DNA of 64,000 nucleotides. Source: Eledone cirrhosa (Eukaryota). The notes beneath the pieces were generated by a model that was not told where the DNA came from, ran no database searches, and saw only the letters and a list, made by a program, of their open reading frames with translations. Every line of letters starts with the position of its first letter. Positions within the stretch are counted from its first letter, which is position 1. The stretch lies in NCBI GenBank assembly GCA_964016885.1, contig OZ024741.1, forward strand, positions 107,570,001 to 107,634,000, written 5' to 3'. Positions 2,959 to 27,035 of this stretch are shown in pieces. The translations under genes were made by a program, and so were the position numbers.

Positions 2959-4279
2959 CAGGGTGCGGACGATATTTGTTCGCAAGATTACTGTCTAGGA
3001 AAAGGTAACACAGTAGTTTTTTTTTTTAAGATATATTTTTTAAGATATATATTTTTAAGATATATTTATCAAACTTGGGTCAGTTTGTCTTCATGACTTG
3101 TTCTTTCGATCTCACTCGATAAACCCACCATTGGCTTTGATGACGGCCTCAAGGTGGCCTCGGAACCGACTACAGAGCTTCGTCACTGTCCCCCGACTTA
3201 AAGGCACCTGTGATCCTGGCTTTCAGATCGTCTTTCGTATTGCAGCTAGATCGGTTTGTCTCGTTCCACTGCGCCCAACACAAAGATGTCGAGGGAGTTG
3301 CAGTCAGGCGAGCTGGGAGGCCAGATGTCAGGTGAAGTGTGGTCGACGAAGTTCTCTGACAGCCAAACTTGGGTCTTTCAGCTGGTATGGCAGGGCGCTA
3401 AGTCTTGCTGCCACACGTACGGCCTACCTGCAGCTACCTGGTCGATCCAGGGCTTTACTATCTCGCTCAGAACGCGGATGTAGCCATCGGTGTTCAGCTT
3501 GAAGCCCTCAAGGAAGAAGTGAGGTGGCATGACGTCACCTTGACTGCTGACGACACCCAAGACCAATGTTGTTGCTGGAAACTTTGTTTGCATGACTCTG
3601 GGCACGTCTTTGGATGAGACAGCGAGCCACCTGTTGTTATGGGAGTTGATCTTCTGGTCTTGGCAGAATTTTTTCTCGTCGGAGAAAACCCACATCATCT
3701 CTGGCTCCAGTGGGTGTTTCAACTTATTGATCAGCTTCTTTGCGTGCCTCAGTCGCTTTTCTTGCATCGCCTTTAACAGAAATTGTCCTTTCCTCATCTT
3801 GTATGAAATGTAGCGAATGTCTTCATGTACCACCAGCCTAATGAGCGTTTCATCCACGCCTTTCTCCCTTGTAATGGCACGCATCGGCTTGCTAGGTTCA
3901 TTGTTGATGATATCCTGAACTTCAGCGACGAACTCAGGCGTTTTAAAGGGCTCAGATCGCCGATCATGTGTTTTCCTCTCAGATGTTGCTTCGTAGTCGA
4001 ACCCTGAATCTTCCAATTCCTTTCTGACCTTTTCCACCATTCTCCTGCAGACGCTGAGAAAGTCTGAAATTTCCTTATTTGTCCTTCGGCGCGGATTCCA
4101 AGAAGAACTCCGTGTCTCTTCCACAAATTTGGAGGTTCAAAATTATTCATAATAAATTATTCTGAAAATAAATAATAAAAATATAGTCACTGTTTTTATG
4201 AAGACAAGAGTGACAACGGAAGTAAAAAAAATTGCATAAAATAAGCAGTTGAAAGCGAACAAATATCGTCCACACCCTG
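2959..4279 (-). mobile_element. Tc1/mariner superfamily DNA transposon, DD37D (maT-type), full length
   Basis: TIRs CAGGGTGCGGACGATATTTGTTCGC / GCGAACAAATATCGTCCACACCCTG with TA on both sides. Encodes a transposase. Confidence 0.92.
3240..4124 (-). pseudogene. DD37D transposase with premature stop
   Basis: FSDEKKF, WQQDLAPCHTS*, then in-frame KTQVWLSENFVDHTSPDIWPPSSPDCNSLD. There are 37 residues between the 2nd and 3rd D. The stop is TGA, probably from CGA. The C-terminal boundary is approximate. Confidence 0.88.
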
Positions 4280-4423
4280 TATATATATATATATATATGA
4301 AGACAAACATAGAATATTCGAAAATATTCTGTATGTTTATAATAAACATTTCGAAGACCCAATCGCTATAGAATAGAATACGTCACGTATTACAATTTGA
4401 GATTCACGATAAAAGCAAGGGAA

Positions 4424-4466
4424 GTAACCTACGCGTTTCATTCTTATTAGAAATCATCCGGATTAC
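4424..4466 (-). ncRNA. Minimal type I hammerhead, core mutated (CGGAUGA)
   Basis: Copy of 4736-4778 with one core substitution. Confidence 0.6.
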
Positions 4467-4735
4467 ATTTCCAGTGCTTTTATCGAGAATGACACAGCTA
4501 GAGACTTATAGAATACTTAGCTGTGTACAGGAACTGGTTTGAAAGAGCGGTTGCCGGTCCGGCAGAAATTAGAATTTGGATATAATGCTCTGAAATAGCG
4601 ATATATATGTGAAGACAAACATAGAATATTCGAAAATATTCTGTATGTTTATAATAAACATTTCGAAGACCCAATCGCTATAGAATAGAATACGTCACGT
4701 ATTACAATTTGAGATTCTCGATAAAAGCAAGGGAA

Positions 4736-4778
4736 GTAACCTACGCGTTTCATTCTTATTAGAAATCATCAGGATTAC
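4736..4778 (-). ncRNA. Minimal type I hammerhead ribozyme
   Basis: Reverse complement: gtaatc CTGATGA tttctaataagaat GAAAC gc GTA ggttac. Confidence 0.85.
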
Positions 4779-5108
4779 ATATCCAGTGCTTTTATCGAGA
4801 ATGACACAGCTAGAGACTTATAGAATACTTAGCTGTGTACAGGAACTGGTTTGAAAGAGCGGTTGCCGGTCCGGCAGAAATTAGAATTTGGATATAATGC
4901 TCTGAAATAGCGATATATATGTGAAGACAAACATAATATTTTCGAATATTCTATGTTTGTCTTCACATATATATCGCTATTTCAGAGCATTATATCCAAA
5001 TTCTAATTTCTGCCGGACCGGCAACCGCTCTTTCAAACCAGTTCCTGTACACAGCTAAGTATTCTATAAGTCTCTAGCTGTGTCATTCTCGATAAAAGCA
5101 CTGGATAT

Positions 5109-5151
5109 GTAATCCTGATGATTTCTAATAAGAATGAAACGCGTAGGTTAC
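5109..5151 (+). ncRNA. Minimal type I hammerhead ribozyme
   Basis: gtaatc CTGATGA tttct-aata-agaat GAAAC GC GTA ggttac. Palindromic helix III ACGCGT as in dimer-acting Penelope HHRs. Confidence 0.85.
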
Positions 5152-5308
5152 TTCCCTTGCTTTTATCGAGAATCTCAAATTGTAATACGTGACGTATTCT
5201 ATTCTATAGCGATTAGGTCTTCGAAATGTTTATTATAAACATACAGAATATTTTCGAATATTCTATGTTTGTCTTCACATATATATCGCTATTTCAGAGC
5301 ATTATATC

Positions 5309-5361
<53 letters not shown>

Positions 5362-7515: not shown

Positions 7516-7516
<1 letters not shown>

Positions 7517-10060
7517 TACAAAAGATCTGGGCCGAAGAAAAAGTTCATAACATACATGCCCCATGGATAGACAGACAAATGAAAGAAACAGCTCACCTTG
7601 AAGAACAAACATGGGAAAATATAACAGTTGAACAGCTGCGCTTGGCTCTAAGAAAAACCAGCAAATGGAAATCCCCAGGAAAAGACAAAATACAAAACTT
7701 TTGGATAAATGCCTTCACAGAGTCTCATGAGCTGTTAGCCCAACTTTACAATGAAATAGTTAAGGAGCCAGAAAAGATACCATCATGGCTAGTTAACGGC
7801 AATACATTCCTGCTACCGAAGAATGATGAGACAAACAATCCCAAAAATTACAGACCGATAACCTGCTTGACCACAATGTATAAAATTTTAACATCAGTCC
7901 TAACTGAATACACATATGACCACCTGATAACAAATGACCTATTTCCCATTGAGCAGAAAGGGTGTAAACGAGGCTCATATGGCTGTAAGGATCAGCTTCT
8001 GGTTAACAAAATGATACTGGAAGATTGTCATAATAGACACAAAAATCTATCGATTGCTTGGATAGATTATAAAAAAGCATTTGATAGTTTGCCACACAGT
8101 TGGATTGAAAAATGTTTAGAGATTTTCAAAATATCCCCCGTTGTCAGGAGGTTTTTGTCATTCAGTATGAGGAAATGGAGAACGACACTCCTTCTGAATA
8201 GTGAAACAAAATCACTGGAAGCTGGAGAAGTTAACATTAATTGTGTAATTTTTCAGGGTGACTCTTTATCACCGCTTTTATTCTGCATCGCACTTATACC
8301 ATTAAGTAAAATGCTCAATGAAACAAAACATGGATATAGAGTCTATGACAAAACCATTAATCACCTGTTCTACATGGATGACCTGAAACTATTTGCAAAA
8401 AATGATGAACAATTGCAAGGGCTATTATCCACTGTGAAGCAGTTCAGTGATGACATTAAAATGGAGTTTGGACTGGATAAATGCGCCAAAGCAACGTTCA
8501 CCAGAGGAAAGCTGCTGAAGAGTTCAGACATTAATCTTGATCGGGGGAACGTGATAAGAGAGCTTGATCAAGAACAAACTTACAAATATCTAGGTGTTTG
8601 TGAAGGAGACGGAATCAAGCACTCGACAATGAGGGAAAGGATAAGGAAGGAATGTTACCGCAGAGTCAGAGCAATCTTAAGAACGGAATTTAATGCAAGG
8701 AATAGGATCGATGCCATAAACATGCTTGCCATACCAGTAGTAATCTACAGTTACAATGTCATCAACTGGTCAAGCACAGAGATCCGTAGGCTCGATACAA
8801 AAATCCGAAAATTCTTATCCATGCACAGAATGCATCACCCTAAGGCAGACATAGATAGAATATATCTCCCTAGGAAAGAAGGAGGACGTGGGTTAATCCA
8901 GTTAGACATTGCGTTGAAAACTGCAACAATTGGATTATCCACATATCTAAGGGAATCACATGATTGGATGATCAAACTCGTTTTGAAACACGAAAGCACC
9001 AAAAGATCATATTCCATTACAAAAGATGCACAAAGATACAGTAATGGACTACAAATTTCAGAAGTCCCATTTACTGCTGAAATGGAAAACACAGAAAAAG
9101 CAAAGCAGGTAAAAGTAACTGCAAAGAAAGAACTGCTACAGAAACTGGCTAAGAAATGGCAAGAAAAGCCTCTGTATGGAAAATACCCAGAGCGAGCTAA
9201 CAATCCTGATGTTGACAAAACTTTAACCCATCAGTGGTTGGCATCCTCTGGACTGAAATCGGAGACTGACGGACTGATTATATCCGCACAAGATCAGTGT
9301 CTGCCAACAAAAAATTACCAAGCCAACATAATAAAAAATGGGTGCAGCCCATTATGCCGTGTATGCAAAAAACAACCAGAGACCATTGACCATATAATTT
9401 CAATGTGCAGTCCTATAGCTCCAACCGAATACCTAAACAGGCATGACAGAGCTGCACAATACATACATTGGATAATGTGTAAGCATTTTGACCTGCCCCA
9501 TCAAAAGAATTGGTGGGAGCATCAACCACCTCCCATACTTGAAAAAGATCACATCTCAATCTTGTGGAACTTTAGCATCCAAACAGACCGAAAAATAGAT
9601 GCAAATAGACCTGATATAATATTGAAGGACTTTCAAAGGAGGGTATGCCTGCTAATTGATATGTCTGTTTCAATAGACAAGAATGTATCTATAAAAACAT
9701 TTGAAAAATTGAGCAAGTATAAGGACCTGGAGATAGAAATTGGAAAAATGTGGAAATTGAGAACTAAAACAATACCAGTGGTTGTAGGCGCTCTGGGAAT
9801 GATACCTAAGGGGTCTAACGACTACTTATCGCAAATCCCAGGAAACCCGCGTATAGGAGAAATACAAAAGATAGTACTAATGGGAACTGCCCATATACTA
9901 AGGAAGATCCTGTCAATATAAGTACATCACAAGTCTAAACACTAAGGATGCATGTGTGAATATGTGTGTTCTTTCTTGAACATGGCGGACCTTGTTGTCT
10001 CTTGAGGTCACTGGTTGTGACTTGGTGATAACTCGTATAAACATAAAGCAAGATAAATGC
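7516..10060 (+). mobile_element. R4-clade (Dong-like) non-LTR retrotransposon, 5'-truncated
   Basis: Open frame from the (TAA)n junction, ~140-bp 3' UTR, then (TAA)n. Confidence 0.92.
7579..9921 (+). CDS. Reverse transcriptase - CCHC zinc knuckle - restriction-like endonuclease (5'-truncated ORF)
   Basis: KSPGKD, NYRPITCL, WIDYKKAFDS, FQGDSLSP, FYMDDLKL, YKYLG, CRVC..ETIDHII.MC, RHD, RPDII...D...K..KY. The frame is already open from 7516 (QKIWAEEKVHNIHAPWIDRQ), so this ATG is internal. Confidence 0.93.
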   Translation: MKETAHLEEQTWENITVEQLRLALRKTSKWKSPGKDKIQNFWINAFTESHELLAQLYNEIVKEPEKIPSWLVNGNTFLLPKNDETNNPKNYRPITCLTTMYKILTSVLTEYTYDHLITNDLFPIEQKGCKRGSYGCKDQLLVNKMILEDCHNRHKNLSIAWIDYKKAFDSLPHSWIEKCLEIFKISPVVRRFLSFSMRKWRTTLLLNSETKSLEAGEVNINCVIFQGDSLSPLLFCIALIPLSKMLNETKHGYRVYDKTINHLFYMDDLKLFAKNDEQLQGLLSTVKQFSDDIKMEFGLDKCAKATFTRGKLLKSSDINLDRGNVIRELDQEQTYKYLGVCEGDGIKHSTMRERIRKECYRRVRAILRTEFNARNRIDAINMLAIPVVIYSYNVINWSSTEIRRLDTKIRKFLSMHRMHHPKADIDRIYLPRKEGGRGLIQLDIALKTATIGLSTYLRESHDWMIKLVLKHESTKRSYSITKDAQRYSNGLQISEVPFTAEMENTEKAKQVKVTAKKELLQKLAKKWQEKPLYGKYPERANNPDVDKTLTHQWLASSGLKSETDGLIISAQDQCLPTKNYQANIIKNGCSPLCRVCKKQPETIDHIISMCSPIAPTEYLNRHDRAAQYIHWIMCKHFDLPHQKNWWEHQPPPILEKDHISILWNFSIQTDRKIDANRPDIILKDFQRRVCLLIDMSVSIDKNVSIKTFEKLSKYKDLEIEIGKMWKLRTKTIPVVVGALGMIPKGSNDYLSQIPGNPRIGEIQKIVLMGTAHILRKILSI

Positions 10061-16150: not shown

Positions 16151-16558
16151 TGTCCTGTCTTAAAATACATGCTGAGCAACGATCAAAATGGAGTGGATCA
16201 TTAGCAAAAAAACAAAGAAAAAAAAAAAAAGACAGTGAAGAGCGGGAGAGATCATCCTGACGAGTACCAGTTGAGTTCGAAATGCATCGACGATTGTCCC
16301 CCCCCCTTGCTTCTGCCGGACACCACTGGGTAGTGTTAGTTGCCAGTGTTTTTCATAGCTATGGCTTTTTTAAATGTTTATTTATAAGCATACAGTATTT
16401 CTTTAGAAATACCAAATTCAAATACATATTTGTATACAGCCATGTTAAATCCTAATTCTATTCTATATTAATATATTCATATGCAAGTGAGATTAATCAC
16501 CTCCGTATTTCTTTAGAAATACGAAATTCATATATATATATAATATATATATATACAC

Positions 16559-16602
<44 letters not shown>

Positions 16603-16604
<2 letters not shown>

Positions 16605-16782
16605 GTTATTCCGGGTTGAATCGGAGGTAACCACAGTAAGTAAGGTACTCAATACATAGCAGAGTATAACAGTTTTAATATAGATGAGATTCTACAGGAC
16701 TAGAACTGTTTCATTCATTAGAAATCATCAGATTCCTGATGATTTCTAATGAATGAAACAGTTCTAGTCCTGTAGAATCTCA

Positions 16783-16790
<8 letters not shown>
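16603..16790. mobile_element. Small fold-back HHR element in (TA)n
   Basis: Near-perfect palindrome 16679-16788 centred on cag-attc-ctg. The 5' end resembles 2819-2850. Confidence 0.75.
16730..16780 (+). ncRNA. Type I hammerhead ribozyme
   Basis: agattc CTGATGA tttctaatgaat GAAACAG ttctagtc CTGTA gaatct. Helix I is 6 bp, helix III is ACAG/CTGT, cleavage triplet GUA. Confidence 0.85.
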
Positions 16791-20060: not shown

Positions 20061-20104
<44 letters not shown>

Positions 20105-20171
20105 AAGGTTTAGTAAATAATGAAAAAGTTTCAAAATAAATTTTAAAAAATTGACTTTACCTACTATAGTT

Positions 20172-20255
20172 ACCTTTACCGATCGGTTTCGAATCCCAAA
20201 AATAAAACGTAGGCCATACGGCCTTCGTTGCAAAGAGAGATTCTCGTCAGAAGGT
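20172..20255 (-). ncRNA. Type I hammerhead ribozyme, extended helix II (copy 1)
   Basis: Reverse complement: acctt CTGACGA gaatct...aacg-aaggcc-gtat-ggcct-acgtt...ggattc GAAAC CGATCG GTA aaggt. Confidence 0.9.
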
Positions 20256-20654
20256 TCTTTTCATTCAAAGAATATAAAATTCCTGAATTTAAATCACAAA
20301 CTAGCGCTATCAAAGACTGTTCCTGGGATGAGAGTGGATGATGTAGAACAGGTTTATCAAGGGCCGTAGTAAAGATAGAGGCAAAAGGAGGTAGGTCAAA
20401 CTAGCCACCGCTGTTATCAGCAGCAGTCGGAATGACTCGGTTTGTTCTCAACGTTTGTGGAGGTAGTAGTAATATGAAATACGTCCTTTCACGCACAAGG
20501 CGCCAAGGTACGCATGTATTGTCCAACCAAGTGCCAGTGTGGTTCAATGGCGGGTTAATAAATTAACGAGCCAGAACAAATATAAACAAGGTTTAGTAAA
20601 TAATGAAAAAGTTTCAAAATAAATTTTAAAAAATTGACTTTACCTACTATAGTT

Positions 20655-20738
20655 ACCTTTACCGATCGGTTTCGAATCCCAAAAATAAAACGTAGGCCAT
20701 ACGGCCTTCGTTGCAAAGAGAGATTCTCGTCAGAAGGT
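20655..20738 (-). ncRNA. Type I hammerhead ribozyme (copy 2)
   Basis: Same sequence as 20172-20255. Confidence 0.9.
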
Positions 20739-21137
20739 TCTTTTCATTCAAAGAATATAAAATTCCTGAATTTAAATCACAAACTAGCGCTATCAAAGAC
20801 TGTTCCTGGGATGAGAGTGGATGATGTAGAACAGGTTTATCAAGGGCCGTAGTAAAGATAGAGGCAAAAGGAGGTAGGTCAAACTAGCCACCGCTGTTAT
20901 CAGCAGCAGTCGGAATGACCCGGTTTGTTCTCAACGTTTGTGGAGGTAGTAGTAACATGAAATACGTCCTTTCACGCACAAGGCGCCAAGGTACGCATGT
21001 ATTGTCCAACCAAGTGCCAGTGTGGTTCAATGGCGGGTTAATAAATTAACGAGCCAGAACAAATATAAACAAGGTTTAGTAAATAATGAAAAAGTTTCAA
21101 AATAAATTTTAAAAAATTGACTTTACCTACTATAGTT

Positions 21138-21221
21138 ACCTTTACCGATCGGTTTCGAATCCCAAAAATAAAACGTAGGCCATACGGCCTTCGTTGCAAA
21201 GAGAGATTCTCGTCAGAAGGT
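21138..21221 (-). ncRNA. Type I hammerhead ribozyme (copy 3)
   Basis: Same sequence as 20172-20255. Confidence 0.9.
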
Positions 21222-21620
21222 TCTTTTCATTCAAAGAATATAAAATTCCTGAATTTAAATCACAAACTAGCGCTATCAAAGACTGTTCCTGGGATGAGAG
21301 TGGATGATGTAGAACAGGTTTATCAAGGGCCGTAGTAAAGATAGAGGCAAAAGGAGGTAGGTCAAACTAGCCACCGCTGTTATCAGCAGCAGTCGGAATG
21401 ACCCGGTTTGTTCTCAACGTTTGTGGAGGTAGTAGTAATATGAAATACGTCCTTTCACGCACAAGGCGCCAAGGTACGCATGTATTGTCCAACCAAGTGC
21501 CAGTGTGGTTCAATGGCGGGTTAATAAATTAACGAGCCAGAACAAATATAAACAAGGTTTAGTAAATAATGAAAAAGTTTCAAAATAAATTTTAAAAAAT
21601 TGACTTTACCTACTATAGTT

Positions 21621-21704
21621 ACCTTTACCGATCGGTTTCGAATCCCAAAAATAAAACGTAGGCCATACGGCCTTCGTTGCAAAGAGAGATTCTCGTCAGA
21701 AGGT
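21621..21704 (-). ncRNA. Type I hammerhead ribozyme (copy 4)
   Basis: Same sequence as 20172-20255. Confidence 0.9.
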
Positions 21705-21735
21705 TCTTTTCATTCAAAGAATATAAAATTCCTGA

Positions 21736-21942
<207 letters not shown>

Positions 21943-25844: not shown

Positions 25845-26278
25845 GTCTGTGTCTGTGTGTGTGTATGTGTGTGCGTGTGGGTGTATGTGTGTGTGTGTGT
25901 CTGTGTCTGTGTTTGCGTACGTGTGTATGTGTGTGTGTATTATTGGTAAAATGTGGACAGATATTCGAGTATGCAGATGCAGACGCACATATATCCATCT
26001 ATCTAACAATCTATGTCTATTTATACACACAGCATTCACATGCATATGTATAACTTACAAATAAATGAATAAATATACACATACATACATTCTTACATAC
26101 GTGTTATATCAGAGTTTTCCTTCTCCAAGAATTCTGCCTTGACAAAGGCTAAGGGGTCATCTCTCCCGGTGATTTTGGATGGCCATTGACTCTTAAGAGC
26201 TCCTTTGCCCTTTGACAGGTTTTGTTTTTAGTCCTGCAGGATGTCCAAAGTCACCCTCCTCACATAAAAGCAAGGGAA

Positions 26279-26321
26279 GTAATCTACGCGTTTCATTCTT
26301 GTTAGAAATCTTCAGGACTAC
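26279..26321 (-). ncRNA. Minimal type I hammerhead ribozyme
   Basis: Reverse complement: gtagtc CTGAAGA tttctaacaagaat GAAAC gc GTA gattac. Confidence 0.85.
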
Positions 26322-26494
26322 ATACCCAGTGCTTTTATCGAGAATGACACAGCTAGAGACTTATAGAATACTTAGCTGTGTAGAGGAACTGGTTTCTGCC
26401 GGACCGGCAACCGCCCTTTCAAACCAGTTCCTGTACACAGCTAAGTATTCTATAAGTCTCTAGCTGTGTCATTCTCGATAAAAGCACTGGATAT

Positions 26495-26537
26495 GTAGTC
26501 CTGAAGATTTCTAACAAGAATGAAACGCGTAGATTAC
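26495..26537 (+). ncRNA. Minimal type I hammerhead ribozyme
   Basis: gtagtc CTGAAGA tttctaacaagaat GAAAC gc GTA gattac. Confidence 0.85.
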
Positions 26538-26804
26538 TTCCCTTGCTTTTATCGAGAATCTAATTGTAATACGTGACGTATTCTATTCTATAGCGATTAG
26601 GTCTTCAAAATGTTTATTATAAACATACAGAATATTTTCGAATATTCTATGTCTATATTCACATATATATCGCTATTTCAGAGCATTTATTCTAATTTCT
26701 AATTTCTGCCGGACCGGCAACCGCTCTTTCAAACCAGTTCCTGTACACAGCTAAGTATTCTATAAGTCTCTAGCTGTGTCATTCTCGATAAAAGCACTGG
26801 ATAT

Positions 26805-26847
26805 GTAGTCCTGAAGATTTCTAACAAGAATGAAACGCGTAGATTAC
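26805..26847 (+). ncRNA. Minimal type I hammerhead ribozyme
   Basis: Same sequence as 26495-26537. Confidence 0.85.
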
Positions 26848-27000
26848 TTCCCTTGCTTTTATCGAGAATCTAATTGTAATACGTGACGTATTCTATTCTA
26901 TAGCGATTAGGTCTTCAAAATGTTTATTATAAACATACAGAATATTTTCGAATATTCTATGTCTATATTCACATATATATCGCTATTTCAGAGCATTTAT

Positions 27001-27035
<35 letters not shown>

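What the first reader, a model, noticed from the sequence alone, without database searches (positions are those of the whole stretch)
4297..5312. 310-312-bp HHR-bearing tandem + inverted family at two loci, with helix I covariation
Seen: two direct 312-bp units plus an inverted unit here, and an inverted piece plus two 310-bp units at 26264-27005, giving six HHR copies. Between loci helix I changes from GUAAUC/GGUUAC to GUAGUC/GAUUAC while staying paired. The free core position 7 changes U to A and the helix II loop changes aata to aaca. Substitutions therefore fall where the fold tolerates them. The two loci begin at different points of the unit (circular permutation). Helix III is only the palindrome ACGCGU, typical of minimal HHRs proposed to cleave as dimers. 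Inference: a second retrozyme-like family under selection for ribozyme function.
Basis: partly seen in the sequence, partly recalled or inferred. Interest (0 to 1): 0.8.

Follow-up and report, generated by a model that had tools for sequence, protein, structure and literature searches.

The report
Two-armed hammerhead retrozyme with Penelope footprint
This is a young, protein-less 310-bp repeat with a conserved hammerhead-ribozyme motif, found at about 1,700 or more places in this animal genome as two back-to-back arms with two fixed ends; it is likely copied from one small circular RNA by a borrowed Penelope-type enzyme, and its inherited changes are biased to A-to-G in a way that would fit RNA editing being written back into DNA.

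Summary
The repeat and its hammerhead (HHR) are real: 14,189 exact HHR-core matches and 1,678 tailed ends genome-wide, 0 in the reversed controls. One of the six cores is mutated (U4G). The helix I change is two one-sided wobble swaps, not covariation. The ends are fixed, not permuted. In 104 of 111 two-armed loci the arms join 5'-to-5', one ending at a ~33-nt tail and the other without it, never two alike. Targets are (TA)n with ~14-bp duplications. This is the Penelope-like (PLE) footprint, and ORF-bearing PLEs here show it too. Real selection appears across 16 older copies (about 65% identical): 16 of 25 pairs co-vary, including core C3-G8 to U3-A8. Both arms share one haplotype in 100 of 103 loci, and no 5' ends pile up at the cleavage site. 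Locus-wide changes are 38% sense A>G against 7.5% of single-unit changes (P=2e-8). Best reading: a non-LTR retrozyme copied from a monomeric circle by twin-site PLE priming, probably ADAR-edited. No RNA data, no cleavage test, no partner PLE identified. Known class; the genomic evidence on mechanism looks new.

The parts
4280..4298 (.). left (TA)n target of locus 1; merges with the unit's internal TA run (tail-less end)
   Evidence: sequence; end class
4297..4935 (-). locus 1 tail-less arm, about 2 units of subfamily A, 3' end pointing left
4424..4466 (-). HHR copy with mutated core (U4G), probably dead
4736..4778 (-). type I HHR, intact core
4927..4958 (.). 5'-to-5' inversion junction, inside a self-complementary AT-rich hairpin of the unit
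4936..5312 (+). locus 1 tailed arm, about 1.2 units; reference unit A = 5000-5311
5084..5171 (+). long stem that presents the HHR at its tip; co-varies across lineages
5109..5151 (+). type I HHR: helix I 6 bp, CUGAUGA, helix II 4 bp over U.U, GAAA, palindrome ACGCGU; predicted cleavage after 5145
5279..5312 (+). ~33-nt tail between the two fixed 3' ends
5312..5346 (.). right (TA)n target of locus 1
26264..26392 (-). locus 2 short inverted arm (0.4 unit); its outer end (unit 167) is atypical, perhaps deleted later
26279..26321 (-). type I HHR, subfamily B
26393..27005 (+). locus 2 tailed arm, 2 units of subfamily B (310 bp), ending ..TCCAA at (TA)n; reference unit B = 26696-27005
26495..26537 (+). 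type I HHR, subfamily B
26805..26847 (+). type I HHR, subfamily B

Best explanation
This is a protein-less hammerhead retroelement whose insertions are two back-to-back tandem arms with one tailed and one tail-less end in (TA)n; it is likely a non-LTR retrozyme whose RNA would self-cleave, close into a 310-nt circle and be copied by a borrowed Penelope-like reverse transcriptase/endonuclease. SHOWN: architecture, fixed ends, TA targets, ~14-bp duplications, HHR covariation, one haplotype per locus, sense A>G excess. INFERRED: (1) array transcripts are cut to monomers by HHRs acting as dimers, because ACGCGU cannot close helix III alone; (2) monomers are ligated into circles; (3) the PLE protein nicks both target strands ~14 nt apart and primes cDNA from both nicks on the same circle, one at the tail end and one ~33 nt upstream at the internal UA run; (4) each cDNA rolls round the circle for 0.2 to over 20 turns and the two are joined by 0-4 nt microhomology, giving head-to-head arms; (5) some templates carry A-to-I edits, which then appear in every unit of both arms. 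My odds: PLE-driven RNA mobilisation 0.9, monomeric circle as template 0.7, ADAR as the source of the A>G excess 0.6.
For: Ends: of 111 two-armed loci scored, all are head-to-head; 104 have one tailed and one tail-less end, 0 have two alike, and 7 have one atypical end (one of them cut by the fetch). 35 of the 104 were picked for a tailed end, so only tail/tail could be excluded there. 144 of 161 outer ends abut a TA run; duplications of about 14-16 bp are readable where the target is not pure TA (L105, L283, L113, L119). ORF-bearing RT+GIY-YIG elements in this genome end the same way, 3 of 3 head-to-head loci (L174, L178, L182). PMC11167929 shows two RT start sites delimiting the tail and extension of both target strands in vitro. 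Single template: arms agree at lineage-marking sites in 100 of 103 loci, where 67-80% discordance is expected for independent draws; 9 of 157 multi-unit loci are mosaic. No template end: 0 of 234 5' ends at unit 147, and 3 within 144-150 against 5.2 expected. Selection: 9 core nucleotides 98.6% identical vs 55% for helix I/II pairs and 80-85% elsewhere; 16 of 25 pairs change on both sides, 92.6% of cells pair, 0/500 shuffles reach this, slid controls pair 38-47%; the U3-A8 core lineage has 205 exact copies. RNA-level change: A>G is 24 of 63 locus-wide changes vs 17 of 226 single-unit changes (P=2e-8); terminal branches only 16/41; distinct sites only 13/46 (P=2.5e-4); outside the HHR P=3e-6; A>G:C>T 24:5 vs 17:39.
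Against: No RNA or cleavage data. No PLE with a homologous pLTR was found among 50 GIY-YIG loci plus five others, nor by two junction patterns (100 rows of 402 and of 162 seen, 30 loci each fetched). ViennaRNA gives helix II only P=0.07-0.67 and the inter-unit helix III P=0 in the two natural dimers. In the Xenopus preprint 8 of 9 predicted dimers did not cleave. In PMC11167929 HHR cleavage is not needed and uncleaved RNA is the main template. 29 variants in 19 loci are shared by only some units, so arrays are also duplicated or converted after insertion. In older lineage C, 4 of 21 two-armed loci look tail-less at both ends (read by eye). Both window loci are exceptions of a sort: locus 1 arms differ at unit 216, and locus 2's left end is atypical. 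The 5'-U context of the A>G changes (16/24) is also seen in single-unit A>G (10/17), so context does not single out ADAR. Within young lineages, 0 of 52 locus-wide variants hit the 11 invariant core positions, but only ~1.8 were expected.
Confidence: 0.68

Rival explanations
1. Same PLE machinery, but the template is a long uncleaved linear transcript of a source array, twin-primed at two sites; the HHR is selected for another step or cuts only when protein-bound, and arrays are homogenised later as DNA.
For: PLE RT in vitro prefers uncleaved RNA and does not need HHR cleavage (PMC11167929). The young HHR looks weak (U.U, 1-bp helix III). Absence of 5' ends at position 147 fits this too. Partly shared variants show DNA-level shuffling.
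Against: A change in one unit of a source would give mosaic daughters. Instead about 50 distinct haplotype rows are locus-wide and cross the inversion, and strand-biased A>G changes are fixed in all units, 32 of 48 times across both arms. One locus holds 24 units and arms exceed 20 units with intact cores.
Confidence: 0.2
2. The monomer bottleneck is a DNA circle (cDNA or excised unit) amplified by rolling-circle replication and then inserted; the A>G bias would come from RT errors or transcription-coupled mutation in source loci.
For: Explains locus homogeneity without an RNA circle. Transcription-coupled A>G asymmetry is known in animal germ lines (recalled).
Against: Does not explain two fixed ends matching RT start sites, TA targeting or target duplications shared with ORF-bearing PLEs. 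The recalled transcription-coupled bias (under 2-fold) is smaller than the 5-fold excess seen, and single-unit changes lean the other way (A>G 17, T>C 34).
Confidence: 0.07
3. These are truncated pLTR remnants of an autonomous PLE, expanded locally as satellite DNA by unequal crossing-over (the model favoured for tandems in the 2026 preprint).
For: Tail and inverted ends are pLTR features. Local duplication occurs. Three loci fuse a unit piece to PLE ORF sequence.
Against: No recurrent foreign sequence upstream of the unit or beyond the tail. Unit length stays about 310-320 bp across lineages about 65% identical. Young B loci differ by only 0.07% within arrays, too little time for separate expansion of both arms, which share haplotypes. 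The three fusions involve three different PLE families.
Confidence: 0.05

Closest known systems
Metazoan non-LTR retrozymes (Cervera and de la Pena 2020, PMC7229834; coral, mussel, axolotl)
   Same: 150-450-bp low-GC tandem unit, one type I HHR per unit, no ORF, thousands of copies, PLEs in the same genome. Axolotl HHR_Amex1 has the 1-bp helix III with a palindromic tetraloop; HHR_Amex2 has the U.U at the base of helix II.
   Different: That paper shows circles and cleavage, which I could not test. It does not mention inverted arms ('inverted' 0 hits) or fixed tail ends, and only proposes PLEs as the driver.
Animal retrozymes as non-autonomous PLE derivatives (bioRxiv 10.64898/2026.07.22.740005)
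   Same: Same overall claim: tandem HHR units derived from and moved by PLEs.
   Different: Its evidence is co-occurrence and pLTR homology in Xenopus. Here homology to a partner is missing but the integration footprint is present. It has no data on tails, inverted arms, per-locus haplotypes or editing (supplements not visible).
EN+ Penelope-like elements (Penelope/Poseidon, Neptune; PMC11167929, PMC3846280, PMC8557442)
   Same: Inverted 5'-truncated arm, 30-40-nt tail at one end only, AT-rich microsatellite targets, target duplications, HHR; U3-A8 core variant as in Schistosoma Cercyon (PMC4209133).
   Different: No RT or GIY-YIG ORF; arms are multi-unit tandems of one short unit.
Non-autonomous Chlamys elements such as MRC1 (PMC8557442)
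   Same: Non-autonomous PLE partners with multicopy head-to-tail insertions.
   Different: [quoted passage not shown]

Membership tests
Non-LTR retrozyme | Tandem unit of 150-450 bp, low GC, no ORF | tested here: met
   310/312 bp, about 34% GC; no ORF of 120 aa or more in the loci
Non-LTR retrozyme | Type I HHR in every unit, conserved as a fold | tested here: met
   5 of 6 window copies intact; Rfam below gathering score
Non-LTR retrozyme | Dispersed loci with target duplications longer than 4 bp, no LTR | tested here: met
   1,678 tailed ends; ~14-16-bp duplications where readable
Non-LTR retrozyme | Self-cleavage of the transcript | not testable with these tools
   needs a bench assay; folding gives weak helix II and no inter-unit helix III
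Non-LTR retrozyme | Expressed as monomeric circular RNA | tested here: inconclusive
   only indirect genomic signs
Penelope-like element, autonomous EN+ | ORF with RT and GIY-YIG endonuclease | tested here: not met
   none in the unit or as its homologous neighbour
Non-autonomous PLE derivative | Inverted 5'-truncated arm plus 30-40-nt tail at one end | tested here: met
   104 of 111 two-armed loci; tail about 33 nt
Non-autonomous PLE derivative | Microsatellite target bias | tested here: met
   144 of 161 outer ends abut a TA run
Non-autonomous PLE derivative | Sequence homology to the pLTR of an autonomous partner | tested here: inconclusive
   none among 55 PLE loci; the search scored 150 of 10,597 GIY-YIG candidates and I fetched 50
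Plant LTR retrozyme | Type III HHR in LTRs with 4-bp target duplication | tested here: not met
   type I topology, tandem units, ~14-bp duplications

The most novel reading that the evidence does not exclude
Each insertion is a fossil of one circular RNA molecule read twice at once: a PLE RT dimer primes both target nicks on the same 310-nt ribozyme-made circle at two start sites and rolls round it. A-to-I edits made on that circle become heritable, locus-wide DNA changes, so host RNA editing supplies over a third of the variation on which this ribozyme evolves. It would be the first genomic evidence I could find for a circular template in PLE-driven retrotransposition and for ADAR write-back in a retrozyme.
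Probability: 0.4. Interest if true: 0.82.

Novelty: new member of a known kind. Interest (0 to 1): 0.6.

Why it matters
How PLEs make their tandem/inverted, one-tailed insertions is named as unresolved in PMC8557442 and PMC11167929. That retrozymes move through circular RNA by PLE enzymes is so far only proposed (PMC7229834; the 2026 preprint). This family has thousands of very young copies, a 310-nt template and an almost exceptionless end rule, so it makes both questions directly testable: a short RNA, circular or linear, with a purified PLE protein and a (TA)n target. The strand-biased A>G signal, if it is editing, would show RNA editing feeding heritable change and gives named sites to check in RNA-seq.

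Tried and rejected
RNA: no RNA holder listed; this is no evidence either way. Contigs of six runs of unrecorded kind cover the unit and its head-to-tail joint but cannot show expression or circles. Partner search: GIY-YIG family search and 50 loci; profile searches from 3 and 16 unit sequences; patterns for foreign sequence upstream of the unit (402 matches) or beyond the tail (162), with no recurrent neighbour. L140 (unit piece beside a PLE) and L281/L336 (PLE across an assembly gap) are unrelated neighbours with their own HHRs. One young family with long ORFs (L171 type) has a 38-nt tail ending in the same six letters as subfamily B, but no wider homology, so it is a weak candidate only. A DNA search for family D returned nothing, probably because common words are skipped. 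Rfam on the whole window gave only miRNA-type hairpin noise. The idea that a ligation scar shows at position 146 rests on 4 of 45 A loci and is not separable from editing or chance. Rejected: circular permutation of ends; helix I covariation between the two window loci; wobble tolerance as the cause of the A>G excess (C>T would rise too). Three look-ups in earlier findings were empty.

Full report
OBSERVATION. The window holds two loci of one repeat. Locus 1 has about two 312-bp units on the minus strand (4297-4935) joined 5'-to-5' to 1.2 units on the plus strand (to 5312). Locus 2 has a 0.4-unit minus arm and two 310-bp plus units. Each unit holds a type I hammerhead: a 6-bp helix I, CUGANGA, a 4-bp helix II over a U.U mismatch, GAAA, the palindrome ACGCGU and a GUA cleavage triplet. 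One of six cores is mutated (U4G). The helix I difference between loci is two one-sided wobble swaps. The monomer folds well (z=-5.5) with the HHR at the tip of a long stem. Rfam sees it only weakly.

COPY NUMBER. G000 is a 3.0-Gb animal genome; its make-up recalls octopus assemblies (from memory, not tested). It has 14,189 exact HHR-core matches and 1,678 exact tailed ends, with 0 in both reversed controls. Subfamily B is very young: 0.07% single-unit differences within arrays against 0.26% for A.

ENDS ARE FIXED. I scored 79 loci chosen by similarity, 16 in genome order by the HHR pattern, and 60 stretches chosen for a tailed end. Of 111 two-armed loci scored, all are head-to-head. 104 have one end at ..TCCAA (tailed) and one about 33 nt earlier at an internal TA run (tail-less); none has two alike; 7 have one atypical end. 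Stretches cut by the fetch were otherwise left out, as were one duplicate locus and, in later counts, one locus with an assembly gap and one overlapping stretch. Arms run from 0.2 to over 22 units. 144 of 161 outer ends abut (TA)n, and duplications of about 14-16 bp are readable at complex targets. 66 of 117 inversion junctions share 1-10 nt. [quoted passage not shown] In vitro the tail corresponds to two RT start sites, with both target strands extended (PMC11167929, main text parts 1-2 of 4). ORF-bearing RT+GIY-YIG elements in G000 carry their own HHRs and the same two ends in (TA)n; 3 of 3 head-to-head loci have one of each. I call them Neptune-like from recalled motifs, with no tree.

SELECTION ON THE RIBOZYME. 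Older relatives about 65% identical exist. In 16 hand-picked copies spanning the lineages, nine core nucleotides are 98.6% identical while helix I/II pairs are 55% and the rest 80-85%. 16 of 25 pairs change on both sides and 92.6% of cells pair, against 38-47% for slid controls and 0/500 shuffles (rows are related and the structure came from unit A, so this is not a P value). The core pair C3-G8 switches to U3-A8 in 6 rows, and one such lineage has 205 exact copies; the same switch is described for Schistosoma PLEs (PMC4209133, parts 1-2 of 4). Helix III keeps a palindromic or near-palindromic short-loop form with different letters. After insertion the core decays neutrally (11 of 265 single-unit changes, 9.4 expected), whereas 0 of 52 locus-wide variants touch it (1.8 expected, not significant alone). 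A variant restoring the helix II base pair is fixed in 16 B loci.

ONE TEMPLATE PER LOCUS. Among 157 multi-unit loci (1,007 pieces), units share a locus haplotype; 9 loci are mosaic at lineage sites. The two arms agree in 100 of 103 informative loci, where 67% (A) and 80% (B) discordance is expected for independent templates. 5' ends do not pile up at the cleavage site (0 of 234 at position 147), as they would for cleaved linear RNA. A monomeric circle read repeatedly explains these facts. Against it, 29 variants in 19 loci are only partly shared, so DNA-level duplication also acts, and a single dominant source locus per germ cell could mimic arm concordance.

A>G EXCESS. On a tree of 53 haplotype rows from 146 loci, leaving out 6 unpolarised root-branch changes, 24 of 63 locus-wide changes are sense-strand A>G against 17 of 226 single-unit changes (P=2e-8). 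The result holds on terminal branches, on distinct sites and outside the HHR. Site 166 changes five times and site 112 four times. C>T, which also keeps a wobble pair, is not raised. None of the 24 has a 5' G, which fits the recalled ADAR preference, but single-unit A>G changes show a similar 5'-U lean. Editing of the RNA template is the simplest reading; recombination inflating repeats, RT error through a DNA circle, or transcription-coupled mutation remain possible.

PARTNER. Not found (see Tried and rejected). Three loci join a piece of an older-lineage unit to PLE ORF sequence of three different families. L339 has a PLE tail-less arm and a unit tailed end, as one mixed event would. L341 has two tail-less ends and looks like two events. 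These are suggestive only.

COMPARISON AND NOVELTY. The class is known: non-LTR retrozymes (PMC7229834, Results parts 1-2 of 3 and passages), argued to be non-autonomous PLE derivatives (10.64898/2026.07.22.740005, parts 1-3 of 5; supplements not visible). In those texts the circle-as-template and PLE-as-driver steps are proposals, and 8 of 9 Xenopus dimers did not cleave. Eight searches (listings and abstract starts) showed no paper on this family, on head-to-head retrozyme arms or on editing written back by a retrozyme. PMC2873906 (passages) covers APOBEC traces in retroelement DNA and ADAR traces in RNA only. Subscription journals and Repbase were not searchable, so the family may be catalogued as a Penelope repeat.

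VERDICT. A real, young, abundant non-LTR retrozyme with a PLE integration footprint: a new member of a known kind. Its value is mechanistic: a near-exceptionless end rule, single-template loci and an RNA-strand mutation bias. Interest 0.6.

Noticed in passing
window 16604-16786 (also L174, L178, L187, L336): Family D: short head-to-head insertions in (TA)n with a full type I HHR (4-bp helix III) whose core and helix II resemble unit A; probably very abundant.
   Followed up: partly
window 16238-16438: Old diverged piece of the same unit family (profile E=1.2e-8), with its own HHR-like core.
   Followed up: no
window 20097-21740: 483-bp tandem, 3.4 units, 99% identical, flanked by (TA)n on both sides; no HHR by my scan and no Rfam match. 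Possibly another non-autonomous PLE passenger.
   Followed up: partly
L339:4000-6970; L341:2740-5660; L344:410-1530: Unit pieces fused 3' of PLE ORF fragments from three different families; template switching or secondary insertion with deletion.
   Followed up: partly
unit position 24 (subfamily A; L079, L089, L419, L274): A>T recurs in only some units of several loci and is fixed in five; an unexplained hotspot.
   Followed up: no
unit position 146 (L078, L092, L421, L082): The cleavage-site A is changed in 4 of 45 A loci; in L078 5 of 6 units across both arms read G. Could be inosine or a ligation scar read variably on each turn.
   Followed up: partly
alignment A1, older lineages: An intron-like pair (GTAAGT ... 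TTTCAG, about 125 nt) lies between the HHR and the tail in older lineages; the donor has decayed in A and B.
   Followed up: no
Arms are longer in young lineages with a 1-bp helix III (mean about 2-3.5 units) than in older ones with 3-5-bp helix III (about 1 unit); age or ribozyme strength.
   Followed up: no
L169, L170, L171, L182, L336: At least six ORF-bearing PLE families with distinct HHRs, several with U3-A8 cores; the L171 type has many long open frames.
   Followed up: partly
window 7516-9921, 3378-4136, 39300-64000: An 801-aa frame resembling a non-LTR RT with a restriction-like nuclease after an (AAT)n run, a Tc1/mariner-like transposase fragment (both labels recalled), and a 25-bp satellite of about 990 copies.
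   Followed up: no
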